DNA of 64,000 bases from Shigella phage SSP1, in the sequence record KY963424; one strand, given 5' to 3'. Shown one piece after another: positions 3-59,195 of this stretch. The notes beneath the pieces were generated by a model, which was not told where the DNA came from, ran no database searches, and saw only the letters and a list, made by a program, of their open reading frames with translations. A program made the translations under genes and the position numbers. Position 1 is the first letter of the stretch, and each line of letters opens with the position of its first letter.

Positions 3-2051
3 TATGGTGTGCAGAAAATACCTGGAATACCTATTTTTGCGGATACGGAATTACATAATCCTAATATAGTTTACGTAGTATATGCTTTTGCTGAAGGAGA
101 GATAGACGGTTTTCTTGACTTTTCCTTTGGTGATAATCCTATGATTTGTATGGACTCTAATGATAGCTCTGCTAGAACCTGCTTCGGTGTTAAAAAAGTA
201 GCAGGAGACACCATGCAAAGAATAGCATCAGGAATATCTTCTAGTAGTCCTTCTGTGCATGGCCAGGAATATAAATATAACGATGGTAATGGTGATATAA
301 GGATTTGGACTTATCATGGAAAAGCCGATCAAACTGCTTCTGAAGTATTAGTAAATATAGCGAAGGAGCGTGGGTTCTATCTCCAAAGTATGAACGGTAA
401 TGGACCTGAGTACTGGGATGCTAGATATAAACTATTAGATACTGCATACGCGGTAGTACGCTTTACTATTAATGAAAATAGAACTGAGATCCCAGAAGTT
501 AGTGCTGAGATTCAGGGTAAGAAGATAAAAATCTACCATTCTGATGGTAGAGTAACTGCTAATAGTACTAGTTTAAATGGTATTTGGCAAACACTTGACT
601 ACTTAACTTCAGATAGGTATGGTGCAAACATTGCTATTGATCAGTTCCCTCTCCAACAATTGGTACAAGAAGCTGCTATCTTAGATATTATAGATGAATC
701 TTACCAGGTATCTTGGCAGCCATACTGGAGATATGTTGGGTGGACTGATCCATTAGCAGAAAATAGGCAAATAGTACAAATGAATACTATTCTAGATACA
801 TCTGAATCAGTATTTAAAAACGTGCAAGGTTTGCTAGAGTCCTACGGTGGGGCTATTAACAACTTATCTGGTCAATATAGGATTACTGTAGAAAAATATT
901 CTAATACTCCATTAGAGATTAATTTTCTGGATACTTATGGTGATTTAGAGCTATCAGATACTACTGGTAGAAATAAATTCAACTCAGTTCAAGCATCCAT
1001 CGTAGACCCAGCTCTTAGCTGGAAAACTAACTCTATTACCTTTTACAACTCTAAATATAAAGAGCAAGATAAAAATTTAGACAAAAAATTACAATTATCT
1101 TTTGCAAATATAACTAACTACTATACTGCTAGAAGTTTTGCAGACAGAGAGCTTAAAAAATCTAGGTATTCTAGAACCCTCTCATTTTCTTTACCATACC
1201 AATTCATTGGTATTGAGCCTAACGATGCTATTGCATTTACATACGACCGTTATGGATGGGATAAGAAATACTTTTTAGTAGATGAAGTCGAAAACTCTAG
1301 AGAAGGAAAGATAAATGTTACTCTACAAGAGTATGGGGAAGATGTATTTATCAACTCTGATCAAGTAGATAATAGTGGTAATGATATACCAGATATTAGT
1401 AACAATGTTCTTCCTCCTAGAGATTTTAAATATACCCCTACACCCGGTGGTTTAGTTGGTTCTATAGGAAAAAATGGTGAGCTATCTTGGCTTCCAAGTT
1501 TAACTAATAACGTAGTTTATTACTCTATCATGCATTCAGGTCATGCTGAACCCTATATCGTACAGCAACTAGAAACAAATCCCAATGAACGCATGATCCA
1601 AGAGATAATTGGAGAGCCTGCAGGTTTAGCAATATTTGAAATAAGGGCCGTGGATATAAACGGTAGAAGAAGTTCTCCAGTAACATTATCTATAGAACTT
1701 AACTCTGCTAAAAACCTAAGTGTAGTATCTAATTTTAGGGTAACTAATACGGCTTCTGGGGATGTAACTGAGTTTGTAGGCCCAGATGTAAAACTAGCTT
1801 GGGATAGGATACCAGAAGAAGATATAATAGAAAGTATATTCTATACTCTGGAGATCTATGATTCTCAGAATAGAATGCTAAGAAGTGTACGTATTGAAAA
1901 TCAGTATACTTATGACTATTTATTAATGTATAATAAGGCAGATTTTGCTCTTCATAACAGCGATGCTCTAGGAATCAATAGAAAACTATATTTTCGTATT
2001 AGAGCAGAAGGAGATGATGGAGAACAGTCTGTGGAGTGGGCATCCATTTAA
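3..2051 (+). CDS. Tail tip/baseplate protein, pb3-like, 5'-partial (reading frame is open to the window edge)
   Basis: Long ORF with no in-frame stop upstream of position 9; sits directly upstream of pb4-like and tail-fibre genes; product assigned by gene order and size only. Confidence 0.55.
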   Translation, partial: YGVQKIPGIPIFADTELHNPNIVYVVYAFAEGEIDGFLDFSFGDNPMICMDSNDSSARTCFGVKKVAGDTMQRIASGISSSSPSVHGQEYKYNDGNGDIRIWTYHGKADQTASEVLVNIAKERGFYLQSMNGNGPEYWDARYKLLDTAYAVVRFTINENRTEIPEVSAEIQGKKIKIYHSDGRVTANSTSLNGIWQTLDYLTSDRYGANIAIDQFPLQQLVQEAAILDIIDESYQVSWQPYWRYVGWTDPLAENRQIVQMNTILDTSESVFKNVQGLLESYGGAINNLSGQYRITVEKYSNTPLEINFLDTYGDLELSDTTGRNKFNSVQASIVDPALSWKTNSITFYNSKYKEQDKNLDKKLQLSFANITNYYTARSFADRELKKSRYSRTLSFSLPYQFIGIEPNDAIAFTYDRYGWDKKYFLVDEVENSREGKINVTLQEYGEDVFINSDQVDNSGNDIPDISNNVLPPRDFKYTPTPGGLVGSIGKNGELSWLPSLTNNVVYYSIMHSGHAEPYIVQQLETNPNERMIQEIIGEPAGLAIFEIRAVDINGRRSSPVTLSIELNSAKNLSVVSNFRVTNTASGDVTEFVGPDVKLAWDRIPEEDIIESIFYTLEIYDSQNRMLRSVRIENQYTYDYLLMYNKADFALHNSDALGINRKLYFRIRAEGDDGEQSVEWASI

Positions 2052-4108
2052 TGATTTCGAATAATGCACCAGCCAAAATGGTCTTAAATAGTATAATGAC
2101 TGGATATACAATGGCATATGTCCAGCACTCTATATATACTGACTATGACGTTATTGGCAGATCTTTTTGGTTAAAGACAGGAGAAAGTGTAGATAGACGT
2201 GATTATACTGGTATAGATACTTTCTTCGTAATGATTAATAATCTGACCCCTTCAACCTCTTATGAGATTCAAGGGGCTTTCTACGACTCTATTATTGATT
2301 CTGAACTGTTAGAGGCTAAGATTGGTATCAATCTCTCTAATGAGACTAACTTTAGGACAAAAGAGAAGCCAACAATTGTTGCAGCAAGATCTGAATCAGA
2401 ACCTGTGGATGTTGGGGTAGGTGCACCGATAGTTATCGTAGAAACAACTGGTGAAGCAAGCTACTGTACTATTGAGTTAAAAAGTACAGCTACTGAAGAC
2501 AGTCCTTGGACTAAGTATTACATTGGTGCTTTAGGTTCTACTATTAAATTTGGTGGAGTTCCTATCGGAGATTACAAGATCAGAATATCTGGTCAAGTAA
2601 CTATGCCTGATGGTGTTACAGTTGATTCTTCTGGGTATTATGAATTCCCTAATATTTTAACTGTAGCGTATAATTTTGTTCCTCCTACTGCACCTATCAA
2701 TATTGTTTTTAAAGCTGCACGAATTGCTGATGGTAAAGAACGCTATGATGTTAGAATTGAGTGGGATTGGGAACGCGGTGGCGGTGCTAATGTTCGTGAG
2801 TTCTTGGTTACTTATATAAACTCTGAAGAATACGGTAAGACTGGCTGGGCTAAAGCCCAAAAGATAAACGTTGGTGCTGCTAGAGCTGCAACAATTATAT
2901 CCTTTCCATGGAAAGTTGAGCATACTTTTAAGGTATCATCAATTGCCTGGGGACCAAATAAGCAGGATATAACAGAATCAGCTCCTGTAACATTTATATT
3001 GAATGAAGATACTCCTCTAGACAACAGCTTTGTCAATGAGACGGGTATTGATGTTAACTATGCCTTTATTAAAGGCAGCATGAAAGATGGAGAAATCTGG
3101 AGACAGACATTCTTAATCGATGCAGCTACTGGTGCTATTAACATCGGTCTGCTAGATGAAGAGGGAAAAGCACCTATTTCTTTTGATCCTATAAACCGTG
3201 TTGTTAACGTTGATGGTAAAGTAATTACTAGAGATATTAATGCTGCGAATTTTATCATGACTAACTTATCCGGTAAGGATAATCCAGCAATTTATACTCA
3301 AGGTAAATCTTGGGGAGATAATAACTCCGGTATTTGGATGGGCATGGATAATACCTCTGCCAAAGCTAAGTTAGACATTGGTAATGCCACACAGTGGATT
3401 CGTTATGATGGTGATGTGCTACGTATCTCTAGTGGTGTAGTAATTGGGACACCAAATGGCGATGTAGATATTGGTACTGGGATGCAGGGTAAACAAACAG
3501 TATTTGTTTATAAGTTAGCAACATCTCTACCCGCTAAACCACTAGAACAAGATTACCCGCCTCCTGGTTGGTCAAAAACTCCACCTAACCGTACAGATAT
3601 GACACAAAATATCTATGCAACTACGGGTACACTTGATCCGGTTACTAACAAACTTCTTGAAGGTACTAGCTGGTCTGATGTAGTTCAGTGGAGTGGTACT
3701 GAAGGTACTATTGGTGCAGATGGTCAAAGGGGGCCTGGCATGTATTCCTTAGGTATTCCAGGTCTTGGAGGCTGGGATGATGGACAAGCTAATGCCTTCT
3801 TCCAGAATAACTTTGGTAGTCCACCAGTTAGATATGATGTATTGACTGAGTTTAATAGTAATGCTCCGCAATCTGCATTTACTCGTCAATGGAATGGTTC
3901 CGGTTGGATTAACCCTGCAATGGTTCTTCATGGCAACATGATTGTTAATGGAACTGTGACTGCTGATAAGATTGTGGCAGGAAATGCCTTCTTATCACAA
4001 ATCGGTGTTAATATAATCTATGATAGAAATGCTGCGTTATCAGGGAACCCTGAAGCATACTATAAGATGAAGATAGACCTAAATAGTGGGTATATCCATA
4101 TAAGGTAA
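2051..4108 (+). CDS. Tail straight-fibre/baseplate protein, pb4-like (about 686 aa)
   Basis: ATG overlaps upstream stop (TAATG); size and position match T5 pb4 as recalled; a GTG/ATG at 2036 is an alternative start. Confidence 0.55.
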
Positions 4109-4112: not shown

Positions 4113-4535
4113 ATGAGTACAGAAAATAGAGTAATTGATATTGTTGTTGATGAGAAAGTACCTTATGGTCTTGTCATGCAGTTTATGGATGTTGATGATA
4201 GTGTCTACCCTCCCTCTGAAATACCTGTTAACCTAACAGGTTACTCACTTCGTGGAACTATTAAAGCAAGTCTTGATGAAGATGCAGAAACTTTAGCTAC
4301 TTTTAAAACTCGTATAATCGATGCGGCTCAAGGAGCTGCTGCTATTAGCCTTAGTGTTGGAGATGTTAATAATATTGGTATTAAGGCATCCAAAGAGCGT
4401 GATAAATATAACCCAAGACAACGTTTTGCAGGCTATTACGATATTCTAATGACCCGCGATGTTATTGGTTCAGAAGTCAGTTCTTTCCGTATTATGGAAG
4501 GAAAGGTTTATGTGAGTGATGGGGTAACTCAATAA
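4113..4535 (+). CDS. Small tail protein, 140 aa, possibly collar (p132-like)
   Basis: Compact ORF between pb4-like and tail-fibre genes; same length as T5 p132 as recalled. Confidence 0.45.
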
Positions 4536-7500
4536 TGGCACTTAAAACTAAAATTATTGTACAGCAGATTCTGAACATAGATGACACTACAACTACTGCT
4601 AGTAAGTACCCTAAATATACAGTAGTTTTAGGAAATTCTATTAGCTCTATTACTGCTGGTGAATTAACTTCTGCTGTAGAAGCCTCCGCTGCTTCTGCGG
4701 CAGCAGCAAAAGGTTCTGAAATTGCTGCTAAAGATTCTGAGAATAAAGCAAAAGACTCCGAAATTATGGCGGGTATCTATGCAGATTCTTCCCAAACATC
4801 AGCTACTCAATCCGCAGCTTCAGCAGCAGAATCTGAGAAACAAGCTAGATTATCTCAGAAGAGTGCAGATGCTTCTGCTACATCAGCGGAAGAGTCTAAA
4901 GGATTTAGAGATTCTGCTGAACTAGCTGCTCAGAATGCTGAGAACAGTCGTAGACTTGCTGAACAAGCTAAGTCTGCTGCGCAAGCTGCTCAAACAGCGG
5001 CTGAAACTGCTAAGACTGGTGCTGAAACAGCAAAAGCTGGAGCAGATGCTGCTGCTACAACTGCTGGAGAACACGCTGCTGCTGCGAAACAATCAGAATT
5101 AAATGCTAAAACTTCTGAGACTAATGCTGCTAGCTCTGCTACAGAAGCGGGGGACAAAGCTATTGATGCTACTACTGAAGCAGATCGTGCTAAAGCTGAA
5201 GCAGATCGTGCAACTCAGATTGTTGATAGTAAACTTGATAAGGTAGATATTTCTGGTTTCATCAAAGTTTATAAGACTAAAGCAGAAGCCGATGCGGATG
5301 TTGGAAGTCGTGTACTAGGGGAGAAGATCCTAGTATGGAATCAAACTGATTCAAAATATGGGTGGTATAAGGTCACTGGTACTGCCGAAGCTCCTGTTCT
5401 AGAATTAGCAGAAATAGAGCAAAAGCTAGTTTCTATTAATAACGTTCGTGCAGATGACGCGGGTAACGTACAGATTACTCTTCCTGGTGGTAACCCCTCT
5501 TTATGGCTAGGTGAAGTTACTTGGTTCCCTTATGATAAAGATTCAGGTGTTGGCTATCCCGGTGTTCTGCCTGCCGATGGCCGTGAAGTCCTTCGTGTAG
5601 ACTACCCAGACACTTGGGAAGCCATCGAAGCTGGTCTAATTCCTTCTGTATCAGAAGCTGAATGGCAGGCTGGTGCAATACTCTACTTCTCCACTGGTGA
5701 TGGTTCTACAACCTTCCGTTTACCAGATATGATGCAAGGGCAGGCTTTCCGTGCACCAACTAAAGGTGAAGAAAATGCTGGTGCTATCAAAGAACAAATT
5801 CCTTATATCACCACTGTGAATGGAATTAGTCCTGCTGACGATACTGGAGCTATTAAGCTCCCTTACGTGGCGATGGTTAATGGAACTATTATACCAGATG
5901 AGAATGGAAACCTAGCACTAGGTAACGTTGTTACTAAGAATGTTTGGAATGGTACTGATGGAGAAGTTCTACTTCGTGGTGCTTTTGGTTTAGGTGGTGC
6001 TGGTATTGCGTTAAATGAACCTGATATAGTATCATTTTTTAAGGCTATGAGAGCTTTTGGCTCTGGGTATTATCGCAATGATACGGGATTTGATGGCTTG
6101 CCTGCATACGCTGCAGGTTTCTACTCCAGGGTAGCAGATACTAACTCGTTTATCTGCCCATCGTATGGTAGTGCTTCAGTATTTGTAGCTGCAATCAATG
6201 ATGCTGGTTTAGATAGTGAAAACCCTATTGTTCATACTAATATTCTTTATGGTACTGTTAATAAGCCAGATCTAAATGGTGATACTAATGGAGTTCTTAG
6301 TGTTGGTAAAGGCGGTACTGGAGCTACCACAGTTAGTGCTGCTAAGAAAGCTTTAGAAGTTGGTGGAGTTTTCTGTAATGATAGCCCAGCTGATGCTGCT
6401 TTCAACTCTCTCCAGAGCCCTGCTGGTATTCATGAGTTTAGACTAACTAATGAGGGGTTATGGGGTGTATGGAAGAAGGGGGAAGAAACGGTAGCTGCGT
6501 TGCCTATAGGCTCTGGTGGTACAGGAGCTACTGATAAAGTTGCTGCACGTGATAACTTTGAATTGGGGTATCATAATACTCCTAGATTTACTGGGGTAGA
6601 TCTATCTAATCCCGAAAGCATACCCTATAGTGGTATCCTTAATCTAAACAGGCTAAAGGAATCTGATCAAAATGTTATTACTCAGGGTAGAATCTATCAT
6701 GAGATGCAATCAGATTTGGCTAAAATTACCCTTCATATTAACAATACTTTAAATGGTGCAAACCGTTATATACAGTTTGTAGAAAATGGTGATTTAACTG
6801 GGCTACAGAATGTACATGCAGTTAACTACCTTGCAAGTGGTTATGTTACAGCCCAGGGATGGATCAAAGGCGGGGAAAAAATCTATATACAGCAAACAGG
6901 TGGGGGCAACAGGGAAATTAGTATGGCTGTACCTACTCCTAATAATGACCCTGGTGCTGGTTCTTGGGTTAACTTACTACAGGGTAACTGGTATAACGGT
7001 TACTGGCAAGTAGGTGGTATCCGTGGTAGTGGACCGGACTTAGACTGCCTCCGTATTGGAGTTAACAACTCTGGTACAGATTGGAAGGAATTCAATTTCT
7101 ACAACTCCTATGGTGGCCATATAACTGCTCCAAAAGGTTTTCGTGGTCAGTGTACTCAAGGATATTGGGGCTTAGAGTGGGATTACATGGGCGCCCCATT
7201 TCATGCAGAGTCTGTAGCAAATAATGATGGTGGTTGGTCTCCTATAGTATCGGGAGGTTCTTTATCCGCTGGTGGATATCATTTAAGAATAGGCCTTGGC
7301 TGTATCTCTAATGGTAACGCTGCATGGCCTGACGCTGCTCTTAAGTTAAATGGGGATGGCCAGTTCCACCGTTCATTCAACTTTAGAACAAACGGTAGCG
7401 TGTATACTTGGGGTAATGATCCTTGGGGAGGTAACTATGACTTTGCTATGAACCCTTCTTCAGATAGAGATATCAAAAGAGATATTAATTATGATGATGG

Positions 7501-7885
7501 GTTAGCCTCCTATGAGAATATAAAGCAATTTAAACCTACCACATTTATCTATAAACTAGATAAGTATAATCGTGTACGCCGTGGTGTTATTGCTCAAGAT
7601 CTTTATAAAATTGACCCTGAGTACGTAAAACTGGTTCCTGGTTCCCCTATCATAGAAACTCCAGAACATCATTGCTGTGACGAAAAAACTGAGAACGTAG
7701 AAAGTAAGATCATTGACTATGAGGATGATACTTTAGCTCTGGATATTAACCCGATCGCTATTGATACGGCATTAGCAGTTCGTTACTTGTCTCTAAAGTT
7801 CGAAGAGTCCCAGGAAGAACTGAAGTCCGTTAAGGCAGAACTGGCAGAGTTAAAAGCTCTAGTAGCCACTCTGGTAAATAAGTAA
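4535..7885 (+). CDS. L-shaped tail fibre protein (LtfA/pb1-like) with C-terminal intramolecular chaperone (peptidase S74) domain
   Basis: 1116 aa; Ala/Ser/Glu-rich N-terminal coiled region; repeated GGTGAT..AKKAL motifs; C-terminal DIKRDINYDD...VIAQDLYKIDPEYVKL resembles the self-cleaving chaperone domain of phage fibres and endosialidases. Confidence 0.8.
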   Translation: MALKTKIIVQQILNIDDTTTTASKYPKYTVVLGNSISSITAGELTSAVEASAASAAAAKGSEIAAKDSENKAKDSEIMAGIYADSSQTSATQSAASAAESEKQARLSQKSADASATSAEESKGFRDSAELAAQNAENSRRLAEQAKSAAQAAQTAAETAKTGAETAKAGADAAATTAGEHAAAAKQSELNAKTSETNAASSATEAGDKAIDATTEADRAKAEADRATQIVDSKLDKVDISGFIKVYKTKAEADADVGSRVLGEKILVWNQTDSKYGWYKVTGTAEAPVLELAEIEQKLVSINNVRADDAGNVQITLPGGNPSLWLGEVTWFPYDKDSGVGYPGVLPADGREVLRVDYPDTWEAIEAGLIPSVSEAEWQAGAILYFSTGDGSTTFRLPDMMQGQAFRAPTKGEENAGAIKEQIPYITTVNGISPADDTGAIKLPYVAMVNGTIIPDENGNLALGNVVTKNVWNGTDGEVLLRGAFGLGGAGIALNEPDIVSFFKAMRAFGSGYYRNDTGFDGLPAYAAGFYSRVADTNSFICPSYGSASVFVAAINDAGLDSENPIVHTNILYGTVNKPDLNGDTNGVLSVGKGGTGATTVSAAKKALEVGGVFCNDSPADAAFNSLQSPAGIHEFRLTNEGLWGVWKKGEETVAALPIGSGGTGATDKVAARDNFELGYHNTPRFTGVDLSNPESIPYSGILNLNRLKESDQNVITQGRIYHEMQSDLAKITLHINNTLNGANRYIQFVENGDLTGLQNVHAVNYLASGYVTAQGWIKGGEKIYIQQTGGGNREISMAVPTPNNDPGAGSWVNLLQGNWYNGYWQVGGIRGSGPDLDCLRIGVNNSGTDWKEFNFYNSYGGHITAPKGFRGQCTQGYWGLEWDYMGAPFHAESVANNDGGWSPIVSGGSLSAGGYHLRIGLGCISNGNAAWPDAALKLNGDGQFHRSFNFRTNGSVYTWGNDPWGGNYDFAMNPSSDRDIKRDINYDDGLASYENIKQFKPTTFIYKLDKYNRVRRGVIAQDLYKIDPEYVKLVPGSPIIETPEHHCCDEKTENVESKIIDYEDDTLALDINPIAIDTALAVRYLSLKFEESQEELKSVKAELAELKALVATLVNK

Positions 7886-7891
7886 GAGTAT

Positions 7892-7912
7892 AGGGGAGTA
7901 ATTCTCCCCTAT
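7892..7912 (+). terminator. Hairpin after first tail-fibre gene
   Basis: AGGGGAG-TAATT-CTCCCCT inverted repeat followed by ATTTACT. Confidence 0.45.
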
Positions 7913-7928
7913 TTACTAAGGAAATACT

Positions 7929-10016
7929 ATGTCACGTAATTTAATGCCTAAATCTGGCGCAATGGCGCCTTACGTAGTAGTTAACAGAGACGCTGCAGTT
8001 GCTGGTGTTTTCTCTGTCGATGGAGAGGCTGGTGCTGTTGTACTAACTTCCAAATATCTACAAATTACAAAATATACTACTGATAAAGCTGCTACTGATG
8101 CATCTATTAATAGTATTAATGAATCAATTGGTAATATTAATACTGCATTAGGTGGTATTAATACTACTTTAGGTACTAAAGCTGCTAAAGGTGCTAATAA
8201 CGATATTACAGAATTAAATGCACTGACTAAAGCTATTACTATTGCTCAGGGTGGTACTGGTGCTACTACGTTAGAGGGTGCTAAGAAGGCCTTACAAGTT
8301 GAGCGCCTTCGCCAACAGAGTAATGGAACTTTTATTGTATCTCCTAATGAGAAATATTCTTTATTTATATATGATAGTGGAGATTTTGGTCTACTTGATA
8401 ATTCTACCGCAGCAGTACAAGCATTAAAAGTTGCATTTGGTGGTACTGGAGGAACTACTCCAAAAGCAGCAAGAAAAAATCTTAATGTTCCGGTTGGCGC
8501 CTCGGCTGAAAAAATTGCTGATGGGGAAGATGTTCTAAACTATATTGCGGTTGCAGGTCAAAGTGGATACTATTCATCTGGTGAATTAATAGTTAATGGG
8601 CCTCCTAAGCAAGAAGGTTGGTGGGCCTATAACTTCCACTGTCATGGTGTGGATATTAACGGAGCTGCTCAGTATGGTACACTAAAAGCTACAGGAGCAC
8701 TTGGAAGTACTTGGATCAATATTCTAGATGGTACAGACAACTGGAGAGGATGGAAAGAGCAATTTAATACCCAGTCTATCATACAGTTTTCAAATGGGGG
8801 TACTGGTGCTACTTCTAAAGATGGTGCAAGAACTAACCTGGATATTGACAGATTCAAACAAAGTGCTACTGAGACTATGGTATATGCTCCCGGAAGTGGA
8901 TTTAGAATCACTGCTAGGCCTAATGGGGAATGGGGTACATGGAGAGATGATACCGGTACTTGGGTTCCTTTGGCTATTACAGCCGGGGGTACAGGAGCTA
9001 ATTCTGCCGACCAAGCTAGAAAAAATCTAGAGTTAACAGAGTGGAACCTCTTATCCTCTATGGATGGTAAATACCCTAATGGGTTTAATTTTGACACTCT
9101 TGCTGTAAATAGTAAGTTTACTGTTCCACCTACTGGAGGAAATATTGTTGGTACCCGACCATACCAACAAATAAACGGGTTGGAAGACGCTTGGTTTTTC
9201 CTAGAGACTCTAGTACACCCAGATCCTAACTATAGAATGCAAAGAGCCACCACGTTTACAGGAACTTGGAAAGGTTCAGTAAGCGTACGTATTATGGAGA
9301 ATGGTACTTGGGGTGTATGGCAACAAGCTCATGGGGCTTTGGGGCAATTAGTTAATGCAATCTCTAACCGAGGTGCCATTAGAGTACAGGGGGCTGCAAG
9401 TGGGGAATCTGGGTCACTAATAAGTGGTGCTATTACTGGTGGTTCATTTACTGATTGGAGATCAAGACCTACAGGAGTACTAGTAGAACATACTGGATTG
9501 GATTCTGCATCTTCTGTATTTAAAAGCGTAATGTGGGGTGTAGACTGGTTAGCCGGTATGGATGTAGTAGGCTGGAGTGCCGGCGGTGCACAGTTAAACA
9601 TGTATTGCAGGGGGGCTGAGTTTCGTTTTGATAGCGCTGGTAATGCTGTTGGTGGTAACTGGGTAAGCAGTTCTGATATTCGCATGAAAGCCAATCTTAA
9701 GGAAATTGAGAATGCTCGTGATAAGGTTAAGTCTCTAGTAGGCTATACATACTACAAGAGAAATACTCTAGCAGAAGAAAGAGATACCGTGTACAGTACT
9801 GAGGCTGGTGTTATCGCTCAAGATGTGCAATCTGTTCTCCCAGAAGCAGTGTACAAGATTGAGCCACAAAAAGAAGACAGTATGCTTGGTGTCTCCCATG
9901 CAGGTGTCAATGCTCTTCTAGTTAATGCTTTTAATGAACTTAACGAAGTTGTTGAAAAGCAGCAACAAGAGATTGATGAGCTTAAGAAACTGGTAAAACA
10001 GTTACTTGATAAATAA
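7929..10016 (+). CDS. Second tail fibre protein (LtfB-like) with C-terminal intramolecular chaperone (S74) domain
   Basis: 695 aa; four GGTGAT(T)..A(K/R)KAL/NL repeat units; C-terminal SSSDIRMKANL...VIAQDVQSVLPEAVYKI chaperone-like domain; RBS AAGGAAA upstream. Confidence 0.8.
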   Translation: MSRNLMPKSGAMAPYVVVNRDAAVAGVFSVDGEAGAVVLTSKYLQITKYTTDKAATDASINSINESIGNINTALGGINTTLGTKAAKGANNDITELNALTKAITIAQGGTGATTLEGAKKALQVERLRQQSNGTFIVSPNEKYSLFIYDSGDFGLLDNSTAAVQALKVAFGGTGGTTPKAARKNLNVPVGASAEKIADGEDVLNYIAVAGQSGYYSSGELIVNGPPKQEGWWAYNFHCHGVDINGAAQYGTLKATGALGSTWINILDGTDNWRGWKEQFNTQSIIQFSNGGTGATSKDGARTNLDIDRFKQSATETMVYAPGSGFRITARPNGEWGTWRDDTGTWVPLAITAGGTGANSADQARKNLELTEWNLLSSMDGKYPNGFNFDTLAVNSKFTVPPTGGNIVGTRPYQQINGLEDAWFFLETLVHPDPNYRMQRATTFTGTWKGSVSVRIMENGTWGVWQQAHGALGQLVNAISNRGAIRVQGAASGESGSLISGAITGGSFTDWRSRPTGVLVEHTGLDSASSVFKSVMWGVDWLAGMDVVGWSAGGAQLNMYCRGAEFRFDSAGNAVGGNWVSSSDIRMKANLKEIENARDKVKSLVGYTYYKRNTLAEERDTVYSTEAGVIAQDVQSVLPEAVYKIEPQKEDSMLGVSHAGVNALLVNAFNELNEVVEKQQQEIDELKKLVKQLLDK

Positions 10017-10020
10017 AAGA

Positions 10021-10050
10021 AAACCCCAGTGGATTGCCCACTGGGGTTTA
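10021..10050. terminator. Bidirectional intrinsic terminator between convergent late (+) and early (-) blocks
   Basis: CCCCAGTGG-ATTGC-CCACTGGGG perfect hairpin flanked by A-run upstream and T-run downstream. Confidence 0.7.
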
Positions 10051-10053
10051 TTA

Positions 10054-10320
10054 TTACCTGCTACCAGCAATAATACCTAAATTAAACACTGCTAACATAG
10101 CTCGAAGAGTAGGATCTTCTGAATTACTACATAGTTCGATAAAAGCCTCCTCATCCCAATGGATTACATTGCCTTCACGATCTACTTTGAGAACTACGTT
10201 ATTCATGTCTGGTTCTGCTACCATAACATGATGATATGTAGCGGGATGTTCAAATGATCCTACCATATTAGGATCAACAAAATTATTTACTTCCTGAACT
10301 TCCAAATCCACCTTCTCCAC
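10054..10320 (-). CDS. Hypothetical protein (88 aa)
   Basis: ORF at 3' end of the minus-strand early block; no recognisable motif. Confidence 0.4.
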   Translation of the reverse strand: MEKVDLEVQEVNNFVDPNMVGSFEHPATYHHVMVAEPDMNNVVLKVDREGNVIHWDEEAFIELCSNSEDPTLRAMLAVFNLGIIAGSR

Positions 10321-54690: not shown

Positions 54691-54719
54691 TTGCTTGAAT
54701 GCTAAATTCTCTGTATAAT
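54691..54719 (+). promoter_or_regulatory. T5-type early promoter (TTGCTT-17-TATAAT)
   Basis: AAAAAATTTGATTGCTTGAATGCTAAATTCTCTGTATAAT + CTATAAATTTGAGAGAGG. Confidence 0.65.
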
Positions 54720-54749
54720 ATATCTATAAATTTGAGAGAGGAACCAAAT

Positions 54750-55268
54750 ATGAATGTTGATGAGCTAACACAGCACCTCTTATCTAGAGGATTTGATACA
54801 GATAAATATCATTGCTGGTTAAGTCCGGAAGGGTGGCTAACTGTCCCGTTGTATGACTTCTCTGGGATGTTGAGAGGCTATCAGACGTATAATCCTTCTG
54901 CTCCAAAAGGTCATGGTAAGTGCCCCTTTGAAGCTAAATATTTTACTTATTCTACTACACAGTGTGTATGGGGACTAGAAACTCTCAATGGAGATGAAAA
55001 AGTAGTATTGATTGCTGAATCTGTATTTAAGGCAGTTGCATTACATAACGCTGGTTATCCAGCCCTGGCAATGTTGGGTTCTTCTCCAGGAAAAGCGTTA
55101 TTAAAGCAACTGAAATTATTACCTTTTAAATTGGTAGCTGTCGGGGACAACGATCCTGCTGGTGAAAAATTTGCTAGAAAATTGAACGGCTTTGTTTCTC
55201 CCGTAGATGTGGATGAGATGTCTACCGAAAACTTGAAAAATTTTCTTGCTATGAAGCTAAATTTCTAA
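54750..55268 (+). CDS. Toprim-domain protein (primase-like)
   Basis: VVLIAESVFKAVAL (Toprim Glu) and VAVGDNDPAGEKFARKL (DxD) motifs; start MNVDEL with GAGAGAGG RBS. Confidence 0.5.
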   Translation: MNVDELTQHLLSRGFDTDKYHCWLSPEGWLTVPLYDFSGMLRGYQTYNPSAPKGHGKCPFEAKYFTYSTTQCVWGLETLNGDEKVVLIAESVFKAVALHNAGYPALAMLGSSPGKALLKQLKLLPFKLVAVGDNDPAGEKFARKLNGFVSPVDVDEMSTENLKNFLAMKLNF

Positions 55269-55289: not shown

Positions 55290-55378
55290 GGAAGAATAGC
55301 ATAACGGTATTGCAGCAGATTGCTAATCTGTCGGTTTGAAATATAGCCTTGTGGGTTCGATTCCCACTTCTTCCGCCA
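55290..55378 (+). tRNA. tRNA-Ser(GCT), type II
   Basis: Acceptor GGAAGAA/TTCTTCC, anticodon loop TTGCTAA, long variable arm, T-arm GTGGG-TTCGATT-CCCAC, encoded CCA. Confidence 0.8.
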
Positions 55379-55384
55379 GATTTT

Positions 55385-55462
55385 GGTTCTCAAGCTCATA
55401 TGGTATGAGCACCCGGCTCATAACCGGAAGGTACGTAGGTTCGAATCCTCGGGGAGCCACCA
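55385..55462 (+). tRNA. tRNA with CAT anticodon (Met or Ile2)
   Basis: Acceptor GGTTCTC/GGGAGCC (with G-U pairs), D-stem GCTC/GAGC, anticodon loop CTCATAA, T-loop TTCGAAT with imperfect stem, CCA encoded. Confidence 0.6.
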
Positions 55463-55480
55463 GTTAAATAGAGGTCACAA

Positions 55481-55669
55481 ATGGATCTATATATAGTTTA
55501 TGTTGTGTTTATTCAAGATAGAGAATACCCGGATGAATATAAAAAAGGATATAGGTTAGCCAGAGCTACCTCTGTAGCCCAAGCTATGGATAAAGTGGCA
55601 GATTATATGATTACGGTAGAAAACGTACACTATATCGACTACCTTGAAGCCTCAAAAGTAATTGACTAA
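55481..55669 (+). CDS. Hypothetical protein (62 aa)
   Basis: ORF immediately after tRNA; weak RBS. Confidence 0.4.
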   Translation: MDLYIVYVVFIQDREYPDEYKKGYRLARATSVAQAMDKVADYMITVENVHYIDYLEASKVID

Positions 55670-55678
55670 GGAGACTAT

Positions 55679-55864
55679 ATGTCTAAGTTTCAAGAACTCA
55701 AGCAAGAGCTAGAAGAATGTGCCTGCCCCGAATGTAGGGGAATTGGTGAAAGTTCTGATGCAGAAGCAGGAGATACTTTTTGCAATATCTGGGTTTGCTC
55801 AAATTGCAATGGTACAGGTATTAATCCTAACTGCGGTATTTCCCTAGATATTGAACGAGGATAA
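55679..55864 (+). CDS. Small Cys-rich (zinc-ribbon-like) protein (61 aa)
   Basis: CPECRG...CSNCNGTG two CxxC pairs; AGGAGACTATATG RBS. Confidence 0.45.
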   Translation: MSKFQELKQELEECACPECRGIGESSDAEAGDTFCNIWVCSNCNGTGINPNCGISLDIERG

Positions 55865-55965
55865 TACCTGTGAAACTAAAAGATTATTATATTGGTTGGT
55901 TTGTAGGATTAGTAGTAGGATTTTCACTAGGCTATAATATGTATCAACTAATAAACTGATTACAT

Positions 55966-56042
55966 GGGGGTGTAATCGAATTGGCATAGGTACTGGACTT
56001 AAAATTCAGGTTTTGTGGGTTCGAATCCCACCACCCCTACCA
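55966..56042 (+). tRNA. tRNA with anticodon TAA (Leu-type anticodon) but short variable arm
   Basis: Acceptor GGGGGTG/CACCCCT, anticodon arm CTGGA-CTTAAAA-TTCAG, T-arm GTGGG-TTCGAAT-CCCAC, CCA encoded; D-arm non-canonical. Confidence 0.55.
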
Positions 56043-56057
56043 AATTAAGGAAATAAG

Positions 56058-56225
56058 ATGTATAGACATCCACCTCCGCCAACACGTCGTTCTAGAGAAG
56101 TTATTCTCATGGAATTGACTAAAAACTTCAAGGCAACCCTTGAAGATAGAGATCTAGGCACGGATGAAGACATTGATTTTATTTGTAGACTATTAAAGAT
56201 GAAACTGGAGAAACAACATGGCTAA
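56058..56225 (+). CDS. Hypothetical small protein (55 aa)
   Basis: AAGGAAATAAGATG RBS right after tRNA; below ORF-track cut-off. Confidence 0.35.
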   Translation: MYRHPPPPTRRSREVILMELTKNFKATLEDRDLGTDEDIDFICRLLKMKLEKQHG

Positions 56226-56424
56226 TCCTGAAATTACCGCACAACGCTTCATGCTTAAAGGCATGATTGCTGAGGCAGGTATAACTCAAGAGGTTGCAGA
56301 TTTTCATAAGCAATTTCTTGATATTATAACTCTAGCTAAAGAGACTGGAGAAAAAGAGCACGGAGCAGCAATTATGGCTATATCTCTTATTAGTCTAGAC
56401 TTGGCTGAAGAATCTGGAGTTTAG
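56218..56424 (+). CDS. Hypothetical protein (68 aa)
   Basis: ORF overlapping previous stop. Confidence 0.4.
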   Translation: MANPEITAQRFMLKGMIAEAGITQEVADFHKQFLDIITLAKETGEKEHGAAIMAISLISLDLAEESGV

Positions 56425-56454
56425 CTCCTCCAAACAGAATTTTTAAAAATGTAC

Positions 56455-56484
56455 TTGCCTTTTGCTTTAAATTTCTGATATAAT
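56455..56484 (+). promoter_or_regulatory. T5-type early promoter (TTGCCT-18-TATAAT)
   Basis: AAAAATGTACTTGCCTTTTGCTTTAAATTTCTGATATAAT. Confidence 0.55.
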
Positions 56485-56514
56485 AGTTATATAAATTGAT
56501 GAAGGAGTTAACGA

Positions 56515-56790
56515 ATGCAAAATCGTGTTATAGCTGCTGGTATTGAAAGTGCAATCTGTAAATCCTGGGAAGGCTGGGAAGGTGAGATTGAATGGCTTTA
56601 TTTCTACGATGTAGAACTTCTGCCGGAAATTAAAGCTAAATGTGTTGAAGCTGGCATGGCTCCAGATGCAAAAGCTGATATTGATATTTCAATGTCTGAA
56701 CTTAAAGGTCGTGTAATCACTGTTAGTGATGAGGGTGAAGAAGTTTTTGAACTTCCGTTCTCCTTAACTGTCACTCCTAAGTTCGACTAG
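56515..56790 (+). CDS. Hypothetical acidic protein (91 aa)
   Basis: GAAGGAG RBS. Confidence 0.45.
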   Translation: MQNRVIAAGIESAICKSWEGWEGEIEWLYFYDVELLPEIKAKCVEAGMAPDAKADIDISMSELKGRVITVSDEGEEVFELPFSLTVTPKFD

Positions 56791-56826
56791 CTAATACAGC
56801 ATTGGGCAAGTTCTTTAAAATTTGAC

Positions 56827-56855
56827 TTGCTCAGTGCCTTAAAACTTGATATAAT
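56827..56855 (+). promoter_or_regulatory. T5-type early promoter (TTGCTC-17-TATAAT) upstream of tRNA-Tyr
   Basis: AAAATTTGACTTGCTCAGTGCCTTAAAACTTGATATAAT. Confidence 0.6.
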
Positions 56856-56979
56856 AGTTATCTAATTTGGAAACATATCTGAATGAGAAGTAATTAAGCG
56901 AGTTGCTTTGAGGGGTAAAGTCAGGAAATCCTGAAATATTCCACCTTGAGTTTAACCGACTTACTTTTCATTCAAATAT

Positions 56980-57060
56980 GAGGGATTGGCTCAGTGGCGA
57001 CGGCGCCTGGCTGTAGACCGGGTATATCACGCGGAGGTTCGAGTCCTCCATCCCTCACCA
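56980..57060 (+). tRNA. tRNA-Tyr(GTA)
   Basis: Acceptor GAGGGAT/ATCCCTC perfect, anticodon arm CCTGG-CTGTAGA-CCGGG, extended variable region, T-arm GGAGG-TTCGAGT-CCTCC, CCA encoded. Confidence 0.7.
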
Positions 57061-57078
57061 AATTACTAAGGAAGTAAT

Positions 57079-57624
57079 ATGCACAATAAGTTAATAAATG
57101 AGCTTCAAAAAAGACAAATAATAACAAAAACTAAGGAGTTTGATATAACTCCAGATTTAATAGTTGAATGTTCAAAAGTTTACTTAGAATTAAGTAACAC
57201 AAAAGCTAAGAAAGTCTCTTTAGGGGATCTTAGATATAACGTTAAACTATTGTGCTTATCATTAATTAAATTTAAACAGGAAAATAAACTTGCTATAAAA
57301 GAAGGCTTCATATATTTTATAGCAAATAAGGCCTGGCCCAATTATTTTAAGATTGGTATGTCAGCTAACCCAAAGAAACGCTTAGCGAACTATCAAACAT
57401 ATAGCCCCTTTAGGGATTATACAATGCTACACTGGTCTTTCTGGTTTGATAGAAAGGAAGGTGAAAAGTTTGTCCATAGTCTCTATCATGATAGAGATCA
57501 TGAATGGGTTAAGTTGCCTCAAAGAAAACTAAATAAAATATTTGAACAAATTAATAAACTTTCTGGTTTGGAACATTTAGTACAGAAAGTTAATAGAGAA
57601 ATAGTTAATGCACCTATCGTCTAA
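57079..57624 (+). CDS. T5orf172/GIY-YIG-like domain protein (mobile-element-type)
   Basis: GFIYFIANKAWPNYFKIGMSANPKKRLANYQTYSP resembles the T5orf172 (GIY-YIG-related) signature; AT-rich codon usage; stop overlaps tRNA-Glu 5' end. Confidence 0.55.
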   Translation: MHNKLINELQKRQIITKTKEFDITPDLIVECSKVYLELSNTKAKKVSLGDLRYNVKLLCLSLIKFKQENKLAIKEGFIYFIANKAWPNYFKIGMSANPKKRLANYQTYSPFRDYTMLHWSFWFDRKEGEKFVHSLYHDRDHEWVKLPQRKLNKIFEQINKLSGLEHLVQKVNREIVNAPIV

Positions 57625-57684
57625 TGGTTAGGACATCAGGATTTCAATCTGAGAATCGGAGTTCAATTCTCCGTGGGTGTACCA
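57610..57684 (+). tRNA. tRNA-Glu(TTC)
   Basis: Acceptor GCACCTA/TGGGTGT (two G-U), D-stem GTC/GAC, anticodon arm TCAGG-ATTTCAA-TCTGA, T-arm CGGAG-TTCAATT-CTCCG, CCA encoded. Confidence 0.75.
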
Positions 57685-57692
57685 GTTTCTGC

Positions 57693-57769
57693 ATTCCTAG
57701 AGTGTTACTGGACAGCATGTCGGTCTCCAAAACCGTACGGTCTAGGTTCGAGTCCTAGTAGGTTTGCCA
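57693..57769 (+). tRNA. tRNA-Trp(CCA)-like (acceptor stem with two U-U mismatches)
   Basis: Anticodon arm CGGT-CTCCAAA-ACCG, D-stem GTGT/GCAT, T-arm CTAGG-TTCGAGT-CCTAG, CCA encoded; acceptor ATTCCTA/TAGGTTT pairs only 5 of 7. Confidence 0.5.
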
Positions 57770-57775
57770 AAATTT

Positions 57776-57850
57776 GCACCTTTAGCTGAGATGGATTAGC
57801 GCTTGCCTGAAGAGCTTGAGAGGTTCGTTCGATACGAACAGGGTGCACCA
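57776..57850 (+). tRNA. tRNA-Phe(GAA)-like
   Basis: Acceptor GCACCTT/AGGGTGC, D-stem GCTG/TAGC, anticodon loop CTGAAGA (stem has two U-U), T-arm GTTCG-TTCGATA-CGAAC, CCA encoded. Confidence 0.6.
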
Positions 57851-57852
57851 AT

Positions 57853-58140
57853 TTGAATGAGCTGCTGATGCATCCTGAAAACTTCTTTATTTACTGCGCG
57901 GATAAGTCGCTGAAACGTAGAATTAACAAAGTCTATCATTATCGTGCTAGTCAACAGCCTTATGTATATGCTTTTGACGGTGATCACATTCCACTAGAAC
58001 AATTATCTTGTGATTACATGATATTGAAGAACTTTGACGAGACGAAGATCTCAAGCGTTCATAATCGACAGAATCCATTAACGTGGAAATATAAGAAGAA
58101 AAAGAAAGGCATCAAATTCTTAAAAAATGTAGTTGCTTAG
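57853..58140 (+). CDS. Hypothetical protein (95 aa)
   Basis: ORF following tRNA block; 3' end overlaps a promoter; weak evidence. Confidence 0.35.
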   Translation: MNELLMHPENFFIYCADKSLKRRINKVYHYRASQQPYVYAFDGDHIPLEQLSCDYMILKNFDETKISSVHNRQNPLTWKYKKKKKGIKFLKNVVA

Positions 58141-58161
58141 TTTCCAAAAGTTCTGTATAAT
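58133..58161 (+). promoter_or_regulatory. T5-type early promoter (TTGCTT-17-TATAAT)
   Basis: AAAAATGTAGTTGCTTAGTTTCCAAAAGTTCTGTATAAT + ACATAAATTGAACTGGAG. Confidence 0.6.
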
Positions 58162-58190
58162 AATTACATAAATTGAACTGGAGAAGCAAC

Positions 58191-58415
58191 ATGACAGAAC
58201 AAGAATTGAATGAACGTAAGCTGGTAATGCTTCGCTTACTAAATATTTTCTCTGGTATGGACGGTGGAATTGACTTTGTTCATCTACGTTCTTTCGTAGA
58301 AGAAGCCGAAGGCGAATCTATCACTAAAATCCTTAAACACATGGGATTACTTTTAGATGCTGCTAATGTGGCTACTGAATATAAACTAGAAGATCTACCG
58401 AAGCGTGTTAAATGA
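58191..58415 (+). CDS. Hypothetical protein (74 aa)
   Basis: Start MTEQEL with GGAGAAGCAACATG RBS. Confidence 0.45.
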   Translation: MTEQELNERKLVMLRLLNIFSGMDGGIDFVHLRSFVEEAEGESITKILKHMGLLLDAANVATEYKLEDLPKRVK

Positions 58416-58603: not shown

Positions 58604-58665
58604 ATGGCTTAGGCGAAGGATTGCAAATCCTTTTTATGTGAGTTCAAATCTCATGCGGTCGTCCA
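58590..58665 (+). tRNA. tRNA-Cys(GCA)
   Basis: Acceptor CGACCGT/GCGGTCG, anticodon arm AAGGA-TTGCAAA-TCCTT, T-arm GTGAG-TTCAAAT-CTCAT, CCA encoded. Confidence 0.75.
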
Positions 58666-58667
58666 AT

Positions 58668-58808: not shown

Positions 58809-58817
58809 ATAAATTTA

Positions 58818-59188: not shown

Positions 59189-59195
59189 ATGAATT

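What the first reader, a model, noticed from the sequence alone, without database searches (positions are those of the whole stretch)
4535..10016. Two tandem tail-fibre genes, each with its own C-terminal self-cleaving chaperone domain and GGTGAT repeat units
Both the 1116-aa and 695-aa proteins end with an S74-type intramolecular chaperone domain (...IAQDLYKIDPEYV / ...IAQDVQSVLPEAVYKI). They share short repeats GGTGA(T/N)...(A/K)KKAL(E/Q) that occur twice in the first and four times in the second. This suggests a branched or dual L-shaped fibre system with separate receptor-binding specificities, as seen in some T5 relatives, rather than the single pb1 fibre. The repeats may be docking or trimerisation modules.
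Basis: partly seen in the sequence, partly recalled or inferred. Interest (0 to 1): 0.45.

Follow-up and report, generated by a model that had tools for sequence, protein, structure and literature searches.

The report
Known two-protein branched phage tail fibre
These are the LtfA and LtfB genes of a T5-like Salmonella phage, which most likely build a branched side tail fibre with two separate receptor-binding tips; this arrangement was described in 2016 and the locus is 99% identical to a phage already in GenBank.

Summary
ORFs 4535-7885 (1116 aa) and 7929-10016 (695 aa) both end in a Pfam Peptidase_S74 chaperone domain with a conserved Ser-Lys pair (S976/K981 and S582/K587). They carry 2 and 4 GGTG(A/G) peptide motifs, against about 0.02 expected by chance.

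The locus is 99.0% identical in DNA to Salmonella phage vB_Sen-E22 and 96.4% to SPC35. Golomidova et al. 2016 name SPC35 as a T5 relative with two ltf genes.

- **ORF1 is LtfA.** Residues 1-442 are 87.6% identical to LtfA of phage DT57C. They cover the segment that inserts into the tail collar, a coiled coil and the phiEco32 gp14-like domain.
- **ORF2 is LtfB.** 43 of its first 45 residues match DT57C LtfB, and about 70% match the second fibre of Kuraviruses.
- **The collar gene ltfC lies directly upstream.**
- **The distal domains of the two proteins are unrelated.**

The guess that the repeats are docking modules is not supported. The inferred docking elements lie elsewhere. The motifs are predicted strand-turn-helix junctions that bracket 40-aa beta mini-domains, and they coincide with borders where related fibres have swapped modules. 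The module is widespread and has no Pfam model. Interest is low.

The parts
4113..4535 (+). ltfC: collar protein that anchors the lateral fibre (140 aa)
   Evidence: Pfam PF23926 LtfC, E 1.7e-14. 92.9% identical to DT57C LtfC.
4535..7885 (+). ltfA: main lateral tail fibre protein (1116 aa)
   Evidence: ORF, translation. 98.2% identical to the vB_Sen-E22 protein. phrog_5481 tail fiber matches full length.
4535..4669 (+). LtfA residues 1-45: N-terminal segment that threads into the LtfC/TTMP ring of the tail tip
   Evidence: Residues 1-45 are identical to chain d of DT57C cryo-EM entry 8hqz. The role is described in PMC10713586.
4658..5227 (+). LtfA residues 42-231: alanine-rich trimeric coiled-coil stalk
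   Evidence: AlphaFold2 predicts one continuous helix over residues 42-231, at low confidence. Matches phrog_24369, a tail-fibre profile of 1396 positions, over residues 3-229. Whether that profile is T5 pb1 was not checked. DT57C LtfA starts a trimerising helix at T40.
5201..5860 (+). LtfA residues 223-442: phiEco32 gp14-like domain, the inferred docking site for LtfB
   Evidence: BLASTP residues 223-677 against Kuravirus EK5 first fibre, 34.5% identity, E 5e-57. SU10 gp12 (7z47_D) residues 248-461, E 4e-41. Docking role proposed in PMC4728585. 240 phage records hold this domain and 234 hold the LtfB N-terminus.
6275..6574 (+). LtfA residues 581-680: one GGTGAT doublet (motifs at 593 and 661 around a beta mini-domain, residues 611-647)
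   Evidence: Predicted short helices at 600-606 and 668-674 follow each motif.
6575..7459 (+). LtfA residues 681-975: beta-rich distal domain, the inferred receptor-binding region
   Evidence: No similarity to ORF2. Replaced in many relatives that keep residues 1-600. Residues 757-1093 are 35-38% identical to fibres of N15 and phage LLS.
7460..7885 (+). LtfA residues 976-1116: S74 intramolecular chaperone, with predicted self-cleavage before S976 (S976/K981 pair)
   Evidence: Pfam PF13884. S976, D977 and K981 are at least 90% conserved in 52 sequences. Foldseek matches the MyRF ICA domain 7dc3, TM 0.62-0.66.
7890..7912 (+). Hairpin in the 43-nt ltfA-ltfB spacer, followed by the ribosome-binding site AAGGAAA and the ATG at 7929
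7929..10016 (+). ltfB: second (branch) fibre protein (695 aa)
   Evidence: ORF, translation. 100% identical to the vB_Sen-E22 protein. phrog_12321 matches full length. A homologue is annotated 'L-shaped tail fiber protein B'.
7929..8063 (+). LtfB residues 1-45: conserved N-terminal peptide, inferred to dock on LtfA
   Evidence: 43/45 identical to DT57C LtfB and 33/45 to the EK5 second fibre. 88-100% conserved in most homologues whose remaining sequence is unrelated to ORF2. Disordered in the monomer model.
8214..8498 (+). LtfB residues 96-190: GGTGAT doublet 1 (motifs at 108 and 171; mini-domain 127-164)
8499..8759 (+). LtfB residues 191-277: globular domain inserted between the two doublets
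   Evidence: AlphaFold2 pLDDT 81-90, strands and one helix over residues 194-278.
8760..9044 (+). LtfB residues 278-372: GGTGAT doublet 2 (motifs at 290 and 353; mini-domain 309-346)
9045..9671 (+). LtfB residues 373-581: beta-rich distal domain, the inferred receptor-binding region, with a hypervariable stretch near residues 451-525
   Evidence: Identity falls to 24-68% in residues 451-525 even in homologues that are 76-82% identical overall. Loops 468-501 are low-confidence. No similarity to ORF1.
9672..10016 (+). LtfB residues 582-695: S74 intramolecular chaperone, with predicted self-cleavage before S582 (S582/K587 pair)
   Evidence: Pfam PF13884. S582 and K587 are invariant in 57 sequences. 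S16 gp37 (6f45_A), E 7e-11. Predicted C-terminal helix over residues 657-694.
10021..10049 (.). 13-bp GC-rich hairpin flanked by A and T runs: a two-way terminator closing the fibre operon

Best explanation
This is the ltfC-ltfA-ltfB lateral tail fibre module of a T5-like (Tequintavirus) Salmonella phage.

**LtfA (ORF1).** It trimerises and threads its first ~45 residues into the LtfC collar at the tail tip. It then extends as a coiled coil of about 190 residues and presents a phiEco32 gp14-like domain (residues 223-442).

**LtfB (ORF2).** Its trimer attaches to that domain through its conserved N-terminal ~45 residues, which makes the fibre branched.

**Distal parts.** Each protein continues into its own shaft and its own unrelated distal beta domain. 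These domains most probably bind different O-antigen types reversibly and hold the virion in place while pb5 finds its outer-membrane receptor.

**Maturation.** Each fibre folds with help from its C-terminal S74 intramolecular chaperone. The chaperone then cuts itself off before S976 in LtfA and before S582 in LtfB.

**GGTGAT motifs.** They are not the docking elements. They are predicted strand-turn-short-helix junctions that bracket 40-residue beta mini-domains in the shaft, and they lie at the borders where relatives have exchanged modules.

**Shown here:** sequence homology, domain order, conserved catalytic residues and the mosaic pattern. **Inferred from DT57C work and from homology:** the physical branch, self-cleavage and O-antigen binding.
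For: - **Near-identical published phages.** The locus is 99.0% identical in DNA to vB_Sen-E22 and 96.4% to SPC35 and Th1, where the genes are annotated 'tail fibers A' and 'tail fibers B'. PMC4728585 lists SPC35 among T5 relatives with two ltf genes.
- **ORF1 is LtfA.** Residues 1-442 are 87.6% identical to DT57C LtfA. Residues 1-45 are identical to the N-terminus of 8hqz chain d, which forms the LtfA ring inside the LtfC ring.
- **ltfC is present.** It lies directly upstream (Pfam PF23926) and is 93% identical to DT57C LtfC.
- **Docking domain.** ORF1 residues 223-677 match the first fibre of Kuravirus EK5 (E 5e-57) and SU10 gp12 (E 4e-41).
- **LtfB N-terminus.** Residues 1-45 of ORF2 are 43/45 identical to DT57C LtfB and 33/45 to the EK5 second fibre.
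- **Co-occurrence.** The LtfB N-terminus is found in 234 phage records and the docking domain in 240. Both sets consist of T5-like phages and Kuraviruses, and both elements sit in phiEco32 itself.
- **Conserved anchor, variable tip.** The LtfB N-terminus stays 88-100% identical in most homologues whose remaining sequence is unrelated to ORF2, and the tip (residues 451-525) is the most variable part.
- **Independent distal domains.** ORF1 and ORF2 share only the GGTGAT module and the S74 domain.
- **S74 chaperones.** Pfam hits on both proteins. S582 and K587 are invariant, and S976, D977 and K981 are at least 90% conserved. The fold matches the MyRF ICA domain.
- **GGTGAT junctions.** Each motif is followed by a predicted 7-8-residue helix and flanks a mini-domain with pLDDT 82-89. 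In LtfB, 108 of 136 switches between long similar and long dissimilar segments fall within -12 to +20 residues of a motif, a zone that covers 19% of the protein. In LtfA the figure is 30 of 130 in 5.9% of the protein.
Against: - No experiment exists on this phage.
- The LtfA-LtfB contact has never been resolved. In DT57C cryo-EM only the N-terminal part of LtfA was built, and LtfB was seen only as weak density. In SU10 only residues 1-90 of gp12 were built.
- The SU10 authors describe the homologous pair as proximal and distal parts of one elbowed fibre, not as a branch.
- The AlphaFold2 models are monomers with mean pLDDT 70 (LtfB) and 57 (LtfA). The docking domain itself is low-confidence.
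- The breakpoint counts are not independent events. When nearby breakpoints are merged into clusters, the enrichment is weak (P about 0.05 and 0.10).
- The receptors are unknown.
Confidence: 0.85

Rival explanations
1. Serial rather than branched fibre. LtfB joins the far end of LtfA and forms the distal half of one elbowed fibre, as the SU10 authors describe for the homologous gp12 (proximal) and gp13 (distal). There would then be only one functional tip.
For: The SU10 long fibre is described as a gp12 trimer plus a gp13 trimer with one elbow. ORF1 and ORF2 share the relevant domains with the Kuravirus pair.
Against: The gp14-like domain ends at residue 442, but LtfA continues for more than 500 residues into its own distal beta domain and its own S74 chaperone. 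In DT57C and DT571/2, the LtfA C-terminal region by itself determines recognition of O22-like versus O87 hosts, and LtfB separately serves O81.
Confidence: 0.07
2. Two independent fibres. ORF2 attaches directly to the tail tip or collar, not through LtfA.
For: Weak map features near the DT57C tail tip were interpreted as LtfB folded back onto the tip.
Against: The ORF2 N-terminus has no similarity to the collar-binding N-terminus of LtfA or pb1. No robust LtfB density was found on the DT57C tail core, whose proteins are close to those of T5, a phage that has no LtfB. The LtfB N-terminus and the gp14-like domain are found in the same two otherwise unrelated phage groups, in nearly equal numbers of records.
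Confidence: 0.04
3. The GGTGAT repeats are the docking or trimerisation modules. LtfB would bind LtfA through matching GGTGAT units.
For: The units are shared by both proteins. In DT57C LtfA a GGTGAT motif sits at residue 455, directly after the gp14-like domain. A role in keeping the three chains in register cannot be excluded from monomer models.
Against: The same module occurs in 2017 cluster representatives, often as long tandem arrays of up to 24 matched stretches in single proteins. This includes fibres with other kinds of C-terminus. That pattern fits a generic shaft repeat better than a specific partner interface. The Kuravirus EK5 second fibre, which has the docking N-terminus, has no GGTG[AG] motif. 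The number and position of motifs differ between DT57C and this phage, while the docking elements are conserved.
Confidence: 0.08

Closest known systems
LtfA/LtfB branched lateral tail fibres of T5-like coliphages DT57C and DT571/2 (Golomidova et al. 2016, PMC4728585; Ayala et al. 2023, PMC10713586)
   Same: Gene order ltfC-ltfA-ltfB. LtfA residues 1-442 are 87.6% identical and LtfB residues 1-45 are 43/45 identical. Both proteins end in S74 chaperones.
   Different: The distal parts are unrelated. LtfA beyond residue 442 matches only in the S74 region, and LtfB beyond about residue 174 matches only in one GGTG unit. DT57C LtfA has tandem 19-aa repeats after its single GGTGAT motif, whereas this LtfA has a different 150-aa segment and a GGTGAT doublet. 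The hosts are Salmonella rather than E. coli O22, O81 or O87.
Salmonella phages vB_Sen-E22, NR01, SPC35 and Th1 (GenBank MT311645, KR233164, HQ406778, MN026741)
   Same: Essentially the same locus, at 99.0%, 98.2%, 96.4% and 96.4% DNA identity over 6.2 kb. LtfB is 100% identical to the E22 protein. SPC35 is named as a two-ltf phage in PMC4728585.
   Different: A few percent of substitutions. Annotations in these records are generic ('chaperone of endosialidase', 'tail fibers protein').
Phage T5 pb1 (single L-shaped tail fibre with a C-terminal intramolecular chaperone)
   Same: Same attachment N-terminus and coiled coil (ORF1 residues 3-229 match phrog_24369, a tail-fibre profile of 1396 positions; whether that profile is T5 pb1 was not checked). 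Same collar protein and same S74 maturation principle.
   Different: T5 has one fibre gene and no LtfB. PMC4728585 relates only the N-terminal part of T5 Ltf to LtfA.
Kuravirus long tail fibre pair (phiEco32 gp14/gp15; SU10 gp12/gp13)
   Same: The first fibre carries the homologous domain (43-45% identity over 210 aa) and GGTGAT units. The second fibre starts with the same ~45-aa N-terminus at 70-75% identity.
   Different: These are podoviruses and their fibres attach to the head-tail adaptor, not to an LtfC collar. SU10 describes the pair as proximal and distal.
Peptidase S74 intramolecular chaperones (K1F endosialidase, GA-1 gp12, S16 gp37, eukaryotic MyRF ICA domain)
   Same: Pfam PF13884 match, a Ser and a Lys five residues apart, a trailing helix and a C-terminal position.
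   Different: Cleavage has not been demonstrated for these two proteins.

Membership tests
LtfA/LtfB branched lateral tail fibre of T5-like phages | LtfA N-terminus homologous to the pb1/LtfA segment that inserts into the LtfC collar | tested here: met
   Residues 1-45 are identical to 8hqz chain d, and residues 1-442 are 87.6% identical to DT57C LtfA.
LtfA/LtfB branched lateral tail fibre of T5-like phages | Collar gene ltfC directly upstream, within a T5-type tail-tip gene order (pb3, pb4, ltfC, ltfA, ltfB) | tested here: met
   Pfam LtfC hit at 4113-4535 and four PB4 domains at 2036-4108. Same gene order in DT57C and vB_Sen-E22.
LtfA/LtfB branched lateral tail fibre of T5-like phages | phiEco32 gp14-like domain in the middle of LtfA | tested here: met
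   EK5 first fibre E 5e-57, SU10 gp12 E 4e-41, phiEco32 44% identity.
LtfA/LtfB branched lateral tail fibre of T5-like phages | LtfB N-terminal ~45 residues homologous to phiEco32 gp15 and DT57C LtfB | tested here: met
   43/45 identical to DT57C LtfB and 70% to phiEco32.
LtfA/LtfB branched lateral tail fibre of T5-like phages | LtfB is physically carried on LtfA (the branch) | not testable with these tools
   Only monomer predictions are available. No solved structure covers the junction.
LtfA/LtfB branched lateral tail fibre of T5-like phages | The two proteins recognise different receptors | not testable with these tools
   Indirect support only: the distal domains are unrelated and vary independently among relatives.
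Peptidase S74 intramolecular chaperone | Match to PF13884 above the curated cut-off, at the C-terminus | tested here: met
   39.2 and 50.9 bits against a cut-off of 22.
Peptidase S74 intramolecular chaperone | Catalytic Ser and Lys five residues apart at the start of the domain | tested here: met
   S976/K981 and S582/K587. Invariant or at least 90% conserved in alignments of 57 and 52 sequences.
Peptidase S74 intramolecular chaperone | Fold of the chaperone domain with a trailing helix | tested here: met
   Foldseek matches MyRF ICA 7dc3, TM 0.62-0.66. Predicted C-terminal helices at residues 1071-1115 and 657-694.
Peptidase S74 intramolecular chaperone | Self-cleavage and release after trimer folding | not testable with these tools
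   Needs protein chemistry or virion mass spectrometry.
B-lectin (bulb-type lectin) repeat, considered for the 40-aa mini-domain between GGTGAT motifs | Significant sequence or profile match to B-lectin domains | tested here: not met
   Only weak hits to pyocin L1/L2 (E 0.03-0.1). No Pfam B_lectin hit even at E 10. No lectin with good probability in the fold search.

The most novel reading that the evidence does not exclude
The GGTGAT-bracketed units may be a widespread, uncurated cassette-linker module of phage fibres. Their conserved strand-turn-helix junctions would keep the trimer in register. Their conserved coding sequence (exact runs up to 15 nt) would also serve as preferred crossover points, letting distal receptor-binding parts move between T5-like phages, Kuraviruses and other phages. 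The mini-domains might in addition bind sugars weakly along the shaft.
Probability: 0.25. Interest if true: 0.35.

Novelty: already known. Interest (0 to 1): 0.12.

Why it matters
The finding has practical value only. It correctly labels two generically annotated genes ('chaperone of endosialidase', 'tail fibers protein') as LtfA and LtfB. It also marks which segments are safe to swap when engineering host range in T5-like Salmonella phages: keep LtfA residues 1-442 and LtfB residues 1-~100, and exchange what lies beyond a GGTGAT junction. It does not change what is known about phage biology. The side observation, that GGTGAT junctions coincide with mosaic borders and belong to a large fibre repeat family with no Pfam model, could help automated domain splitting of fibre proteins.

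Tried and rejected
- **Pfam and NCBIfam on the GGTGAT module and both distal domains.** No family matched, even at E 10.
- **PDB profile search with the module.** The only significant hits were SU10 gp12 and DT57C LtfA, and in those entries this part of the chain was not built. No experimental structure of the motif was therefore found.
- **B-lectin resemblance of the mini-domain.** The hits were too weak (E 0.03-0.1) and nothing else supported them, so the idea was rejected.
- **Fold search for the receptor-binding domains.** LtfB gave only generic fibre-shaft matches: R-pyocin fibres and T4 gp34, with TM scores of 0.31 or less. LtfA gave only the chaperone domain. No receptor could be inferred.
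- **Literature search for the peptide motif.** All hits for 'GGTGA' or 'GGTGAT' were DNA strings.
- **Zhang et al. 2022 (PMC9469705)** on altering long tail fibres of a T5-like Salmonella phage is not held in the library.
- **Promoter scan of the locus.** The number of sites was no greater than in shuffled sequence.
- **ORF2 as a duplicate of ORF1.** Rejected from the pairwise comparison.

Full report
**1. Observation**

Each ends in a Pfam Peptidase_S74 'chaperone of endosialidase' domain. The match covers residues 976-1032 in ORF1 and 582-642 in ORF2, both above the curated cut-off.

The peptide motif GGTG[A/G] occurs at ORF1 residues 593 and 661 and at ORF2 residues 108, 171, 290 and 353. 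Shuffled proteins give a mean of about 0.02 copies. The repeat is also detectable in the DNA, at 61-81% identity over 32-44 nt with exact runs up to 15 nt. The only correction is that the 'AKKAL' tail occurs once per protein. The general form is GGTG(A/G)x-x4-A(R/K)-x-(N/A)-L.

**2. What the locus is**

The 6.2-kb stretch 4113-10320 is 99.0% identical to Salmonella phage vB_Sen-E22. It is 98.2% identical to NR01 and 96.4% to SPC35 and Th1, where the genes are annotated 'tail fibers A' and 'tail fibers B'. All are T5-like phages (Demerecviridae, Tequintavirus).

The surroundings fit. pb3 and pb4 lie upstream, with four PB4 Pfam domains. The 140-aa LtfC collar protein is at 4113-4535. dUTPase, flap endonuclease and the D11-D14 genes converge from the other strand. 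The rest of the window carries T5-type nucleotide-metabolism and replication genes and a cluster of 18 tRNA genes.

**3. Homology to the characterised system**

- ORF1 residues 1-442 are 87.6% identical to LtfA of coliphage DT57C.
- ORF1 residues 1-45 are identical to the N-terminus of chain d in cryo-EM entry 8hqz. In that structure nine LtfA N-termini form a lasso inside a ring of twelve LtfC subunits, and a trimerising helix begins at T40.
- ORF1 residues 223-442 match the first long-fibre protein of Kuraviruses: EK5 at E 5e-57, SU10 gp12 at E 4e-41, and phiEco32 at 44% identity.
- ORF2 begins with a 45-residue segment that is 43/45 identical to DT57C LtfB and 70-75% identical to the second Kuravirus fibre.

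Golomidova et al. 2016 used exactly these two similarities, together with mutants, to propose that LtfB hangs on LtfA and that each protein carries its own receptor-binding region. In their phages LtfA recognises O22-like or O87 O-antigen and LtfB recognises O81. They list SPC35 among the phages with two ltf genes. Later papers treat LtfA/LtfB as a common variant in T5-like phages. Close homologues of both window proteins are annotated 'L-shaped tail fiber protein A' and 'B'.

**4. Tests of the interpretation**

That test fails. ORF1 and ORF2 share only the roughly 100-aa GGTGAT module (33-35% identity) and the S74 domain (24% identity). Their distal beta domains are unrelated.

Among 56 LtfB homologues, residues 1-50 stay 88-100% identical in most proteins whose remaining sequence is unrelated to ORF2. 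Residues 451-525 drop to 24-68% even in homologues that are 76-82% identical overall. That is the pattern expected for a conserved anchor and a variable tip.

LtfA shows the same modularity. Many relatives keep residues 1-442 or 1-600 and then diverge. Its distal part (residues 757-1093) has relatives in N15 and other unrelated siphophages.

The LtfB N-terminus is found in 234 phage records. The gp14-like domain is found at full length in 240. Both sets consist of T5-like phages and Kuraviruses. This count-level agreement fits a matched pair of docking elements, although I could not intersect the two record lists.

**5. Chaperone domains**

Both S74 domains begin with a Ser followed by a Lys five residues later: S976/K981 and S582/K587. 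S582 and K587 are invariant in 57 aligned sequences. S976, D977 and K981 are at least 90% conserved in 52.

The ORF1 model matches the MyRF ICA domain (TM 0.62-0.66). ORF2 matches the C-terminus of S16 gp37 by sequence (E 7e-11). Cleavage before S976 and before S582 is therefore predicted. It is not shown.

**6. The GGTGAT repeats**

In the AlphaFold2 monomer model of ORF2 (mean pLDDT 70), every motif sits between a strand and a 7-8-residue helix. Pairs of motifs enclose five-stranded mini-domains at residues 127-164 and 309-346, with pLDDT 82-89. An 85-residue globular domain is inserted between the two doublets. ORF1 has one such doublet.

The same units occur four times in the EK5 first fibre, twice in degenerate form in DT57C LtfB, and once in DT57C LtfA. 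A profile of the three window doublets finds 2017 representatives of 50%-identity clusters at E of 0.001 or better, and 431 at 1e-10 or better. Some have up to 24 matched stretches. The hits include fibres with S74, gp37_trimer or Phage_tail_C_2 ends. Pfam and NCBIfam have no model for the module.

A two-state change-point analysis of 120 and 118 homologues gave the following. In LtfB, 108 of 136 switches between long similar and long dissimilar segments lie within -12 to +20 residues of a motif, a zone that covers 19% of the protein. In LtfA the figure is 30 of 130 in 5.9% of the protein. LtfA has a further cluster at residues 427-451, the end of the docking domain.

These counts are not independent events. 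When nearby breakpoints are merged into clusters, the enrichment is only P about 0.05 and 0.10. I therefore treat 'junctions mark exchange borders' as a reasonable inference, not a result. The motifs look like generic shaft junctions rather than docking sites. The inferred docking elements are elsewhere, and the EK5 second fibre, which has the docking N-terminus, has no GGTG[AG] motif.

**7. Rivals**

- *One elbowed, serial fibre.* This is the SU10 authors' wording. It is unlikely because LtfA continues for more than 500 residues past the docking domain into its own tip and chaperone, and because DT57C genetics separate the two specificities.
- *Direct attachment of LtfB to the tail.* This is unlikely because LtfB lacks the collar-binding N-terminus and no robust LtfB density was seen on the DT57C tail core.

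**8. Verdict**

What it found is a known system in a phage that is nearly identical to several GenBank entries. Novelty: already known. Interest: low. The side observation on the GGTGAT module is modest and unproven.

Noticed in passing
window 7890-7912: A 9-bp GC-rich hairpin (ATAGGGGAG-TAATT-CTCCCCTAT) sits in the 43-nt spacer between ltfA and ltfB, just before the ltfB ribosome-binding site. It has no clear T run, so it may be a weak attenuator or an mRNA-stability element that sets the LtfA:LtfB ratio.
   Followed up: no
window 10021-10049: A strong 13-bp hairpin flanked by A and T runs lies where the + strand fibre operon meets the - strand early and replication genes. It is a likely two-way terminator.
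   Followed up: no
window 10054-10320 (-): A small ORF next to the dUTPase gene matches Pfam DUF7369 (E 9e-36). Its function is unknown.
   Followed up: partly
window 55290-63538: A cluster of 18 tRNA genes is interspersed with likely homing-endonuclease ORFs: 57079-57624 (T5orf172/MUG113), 59196-59777 (NUMOD4) and 62914-63474 (HNH_3). A Toprim-like ORF lies at 54699-55268.
   Followed up: partly
window 5504-5758 (LtfA residues ~324-408): A sub-segment of the LtfB-docking domain also matches fibres of Burkholderia, Yersinia, Achromobacter and Erwinia phages at 32-47% identity. It also matches a second site in DT57C LtfA (residues 609-665) and one in DT57C LtfB (residues 273-329). It looks like a tail-collar-type subdomain reused in many fibres.
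   Followed up: partly
window 6803-7813 (LtfA residues 757-1093): The distal part of LtfA is 35-38% identical to gp25 of phage N15 and to the fibre of the 43-kb phage LLS. Residues 672-1006 are 53% identical to a region of Salmonella phage PMBT35. The tip has been exchanged across unrelated phage groups.
   Followed up: partly
window 30000-52000 versus 4113-10320: The fibre locus is 99% identical to vB_Sen-E22, but the replication and nucleotide-metabolism block is only 95-96.6% identical to its best matches (phiLLS, Lindwurm, Kenya-K18). The genome is a mosaic of T5-like backbones.
   Followed up: no
window 2036-2051: The mechanical ORF list starts pb4 at a GTG at 2036. The vB_Sen-E22 annotation corresponds to a start at 2051, overlapping the pb3 stop codon. 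The true start is probably 2051.
   Followed up: no
window 8214-8498, 8760-9044, 6275-6574: The GGTGAT doublet module has no Pfam or NCBIfam model, yet it matches 2017 representatives of 50%-identity clusters in the 1.84-billion-protein library, some with up to 24 matched stretches. It is a candidate for a new curated fibre-repeat family.
   Followed up: partly
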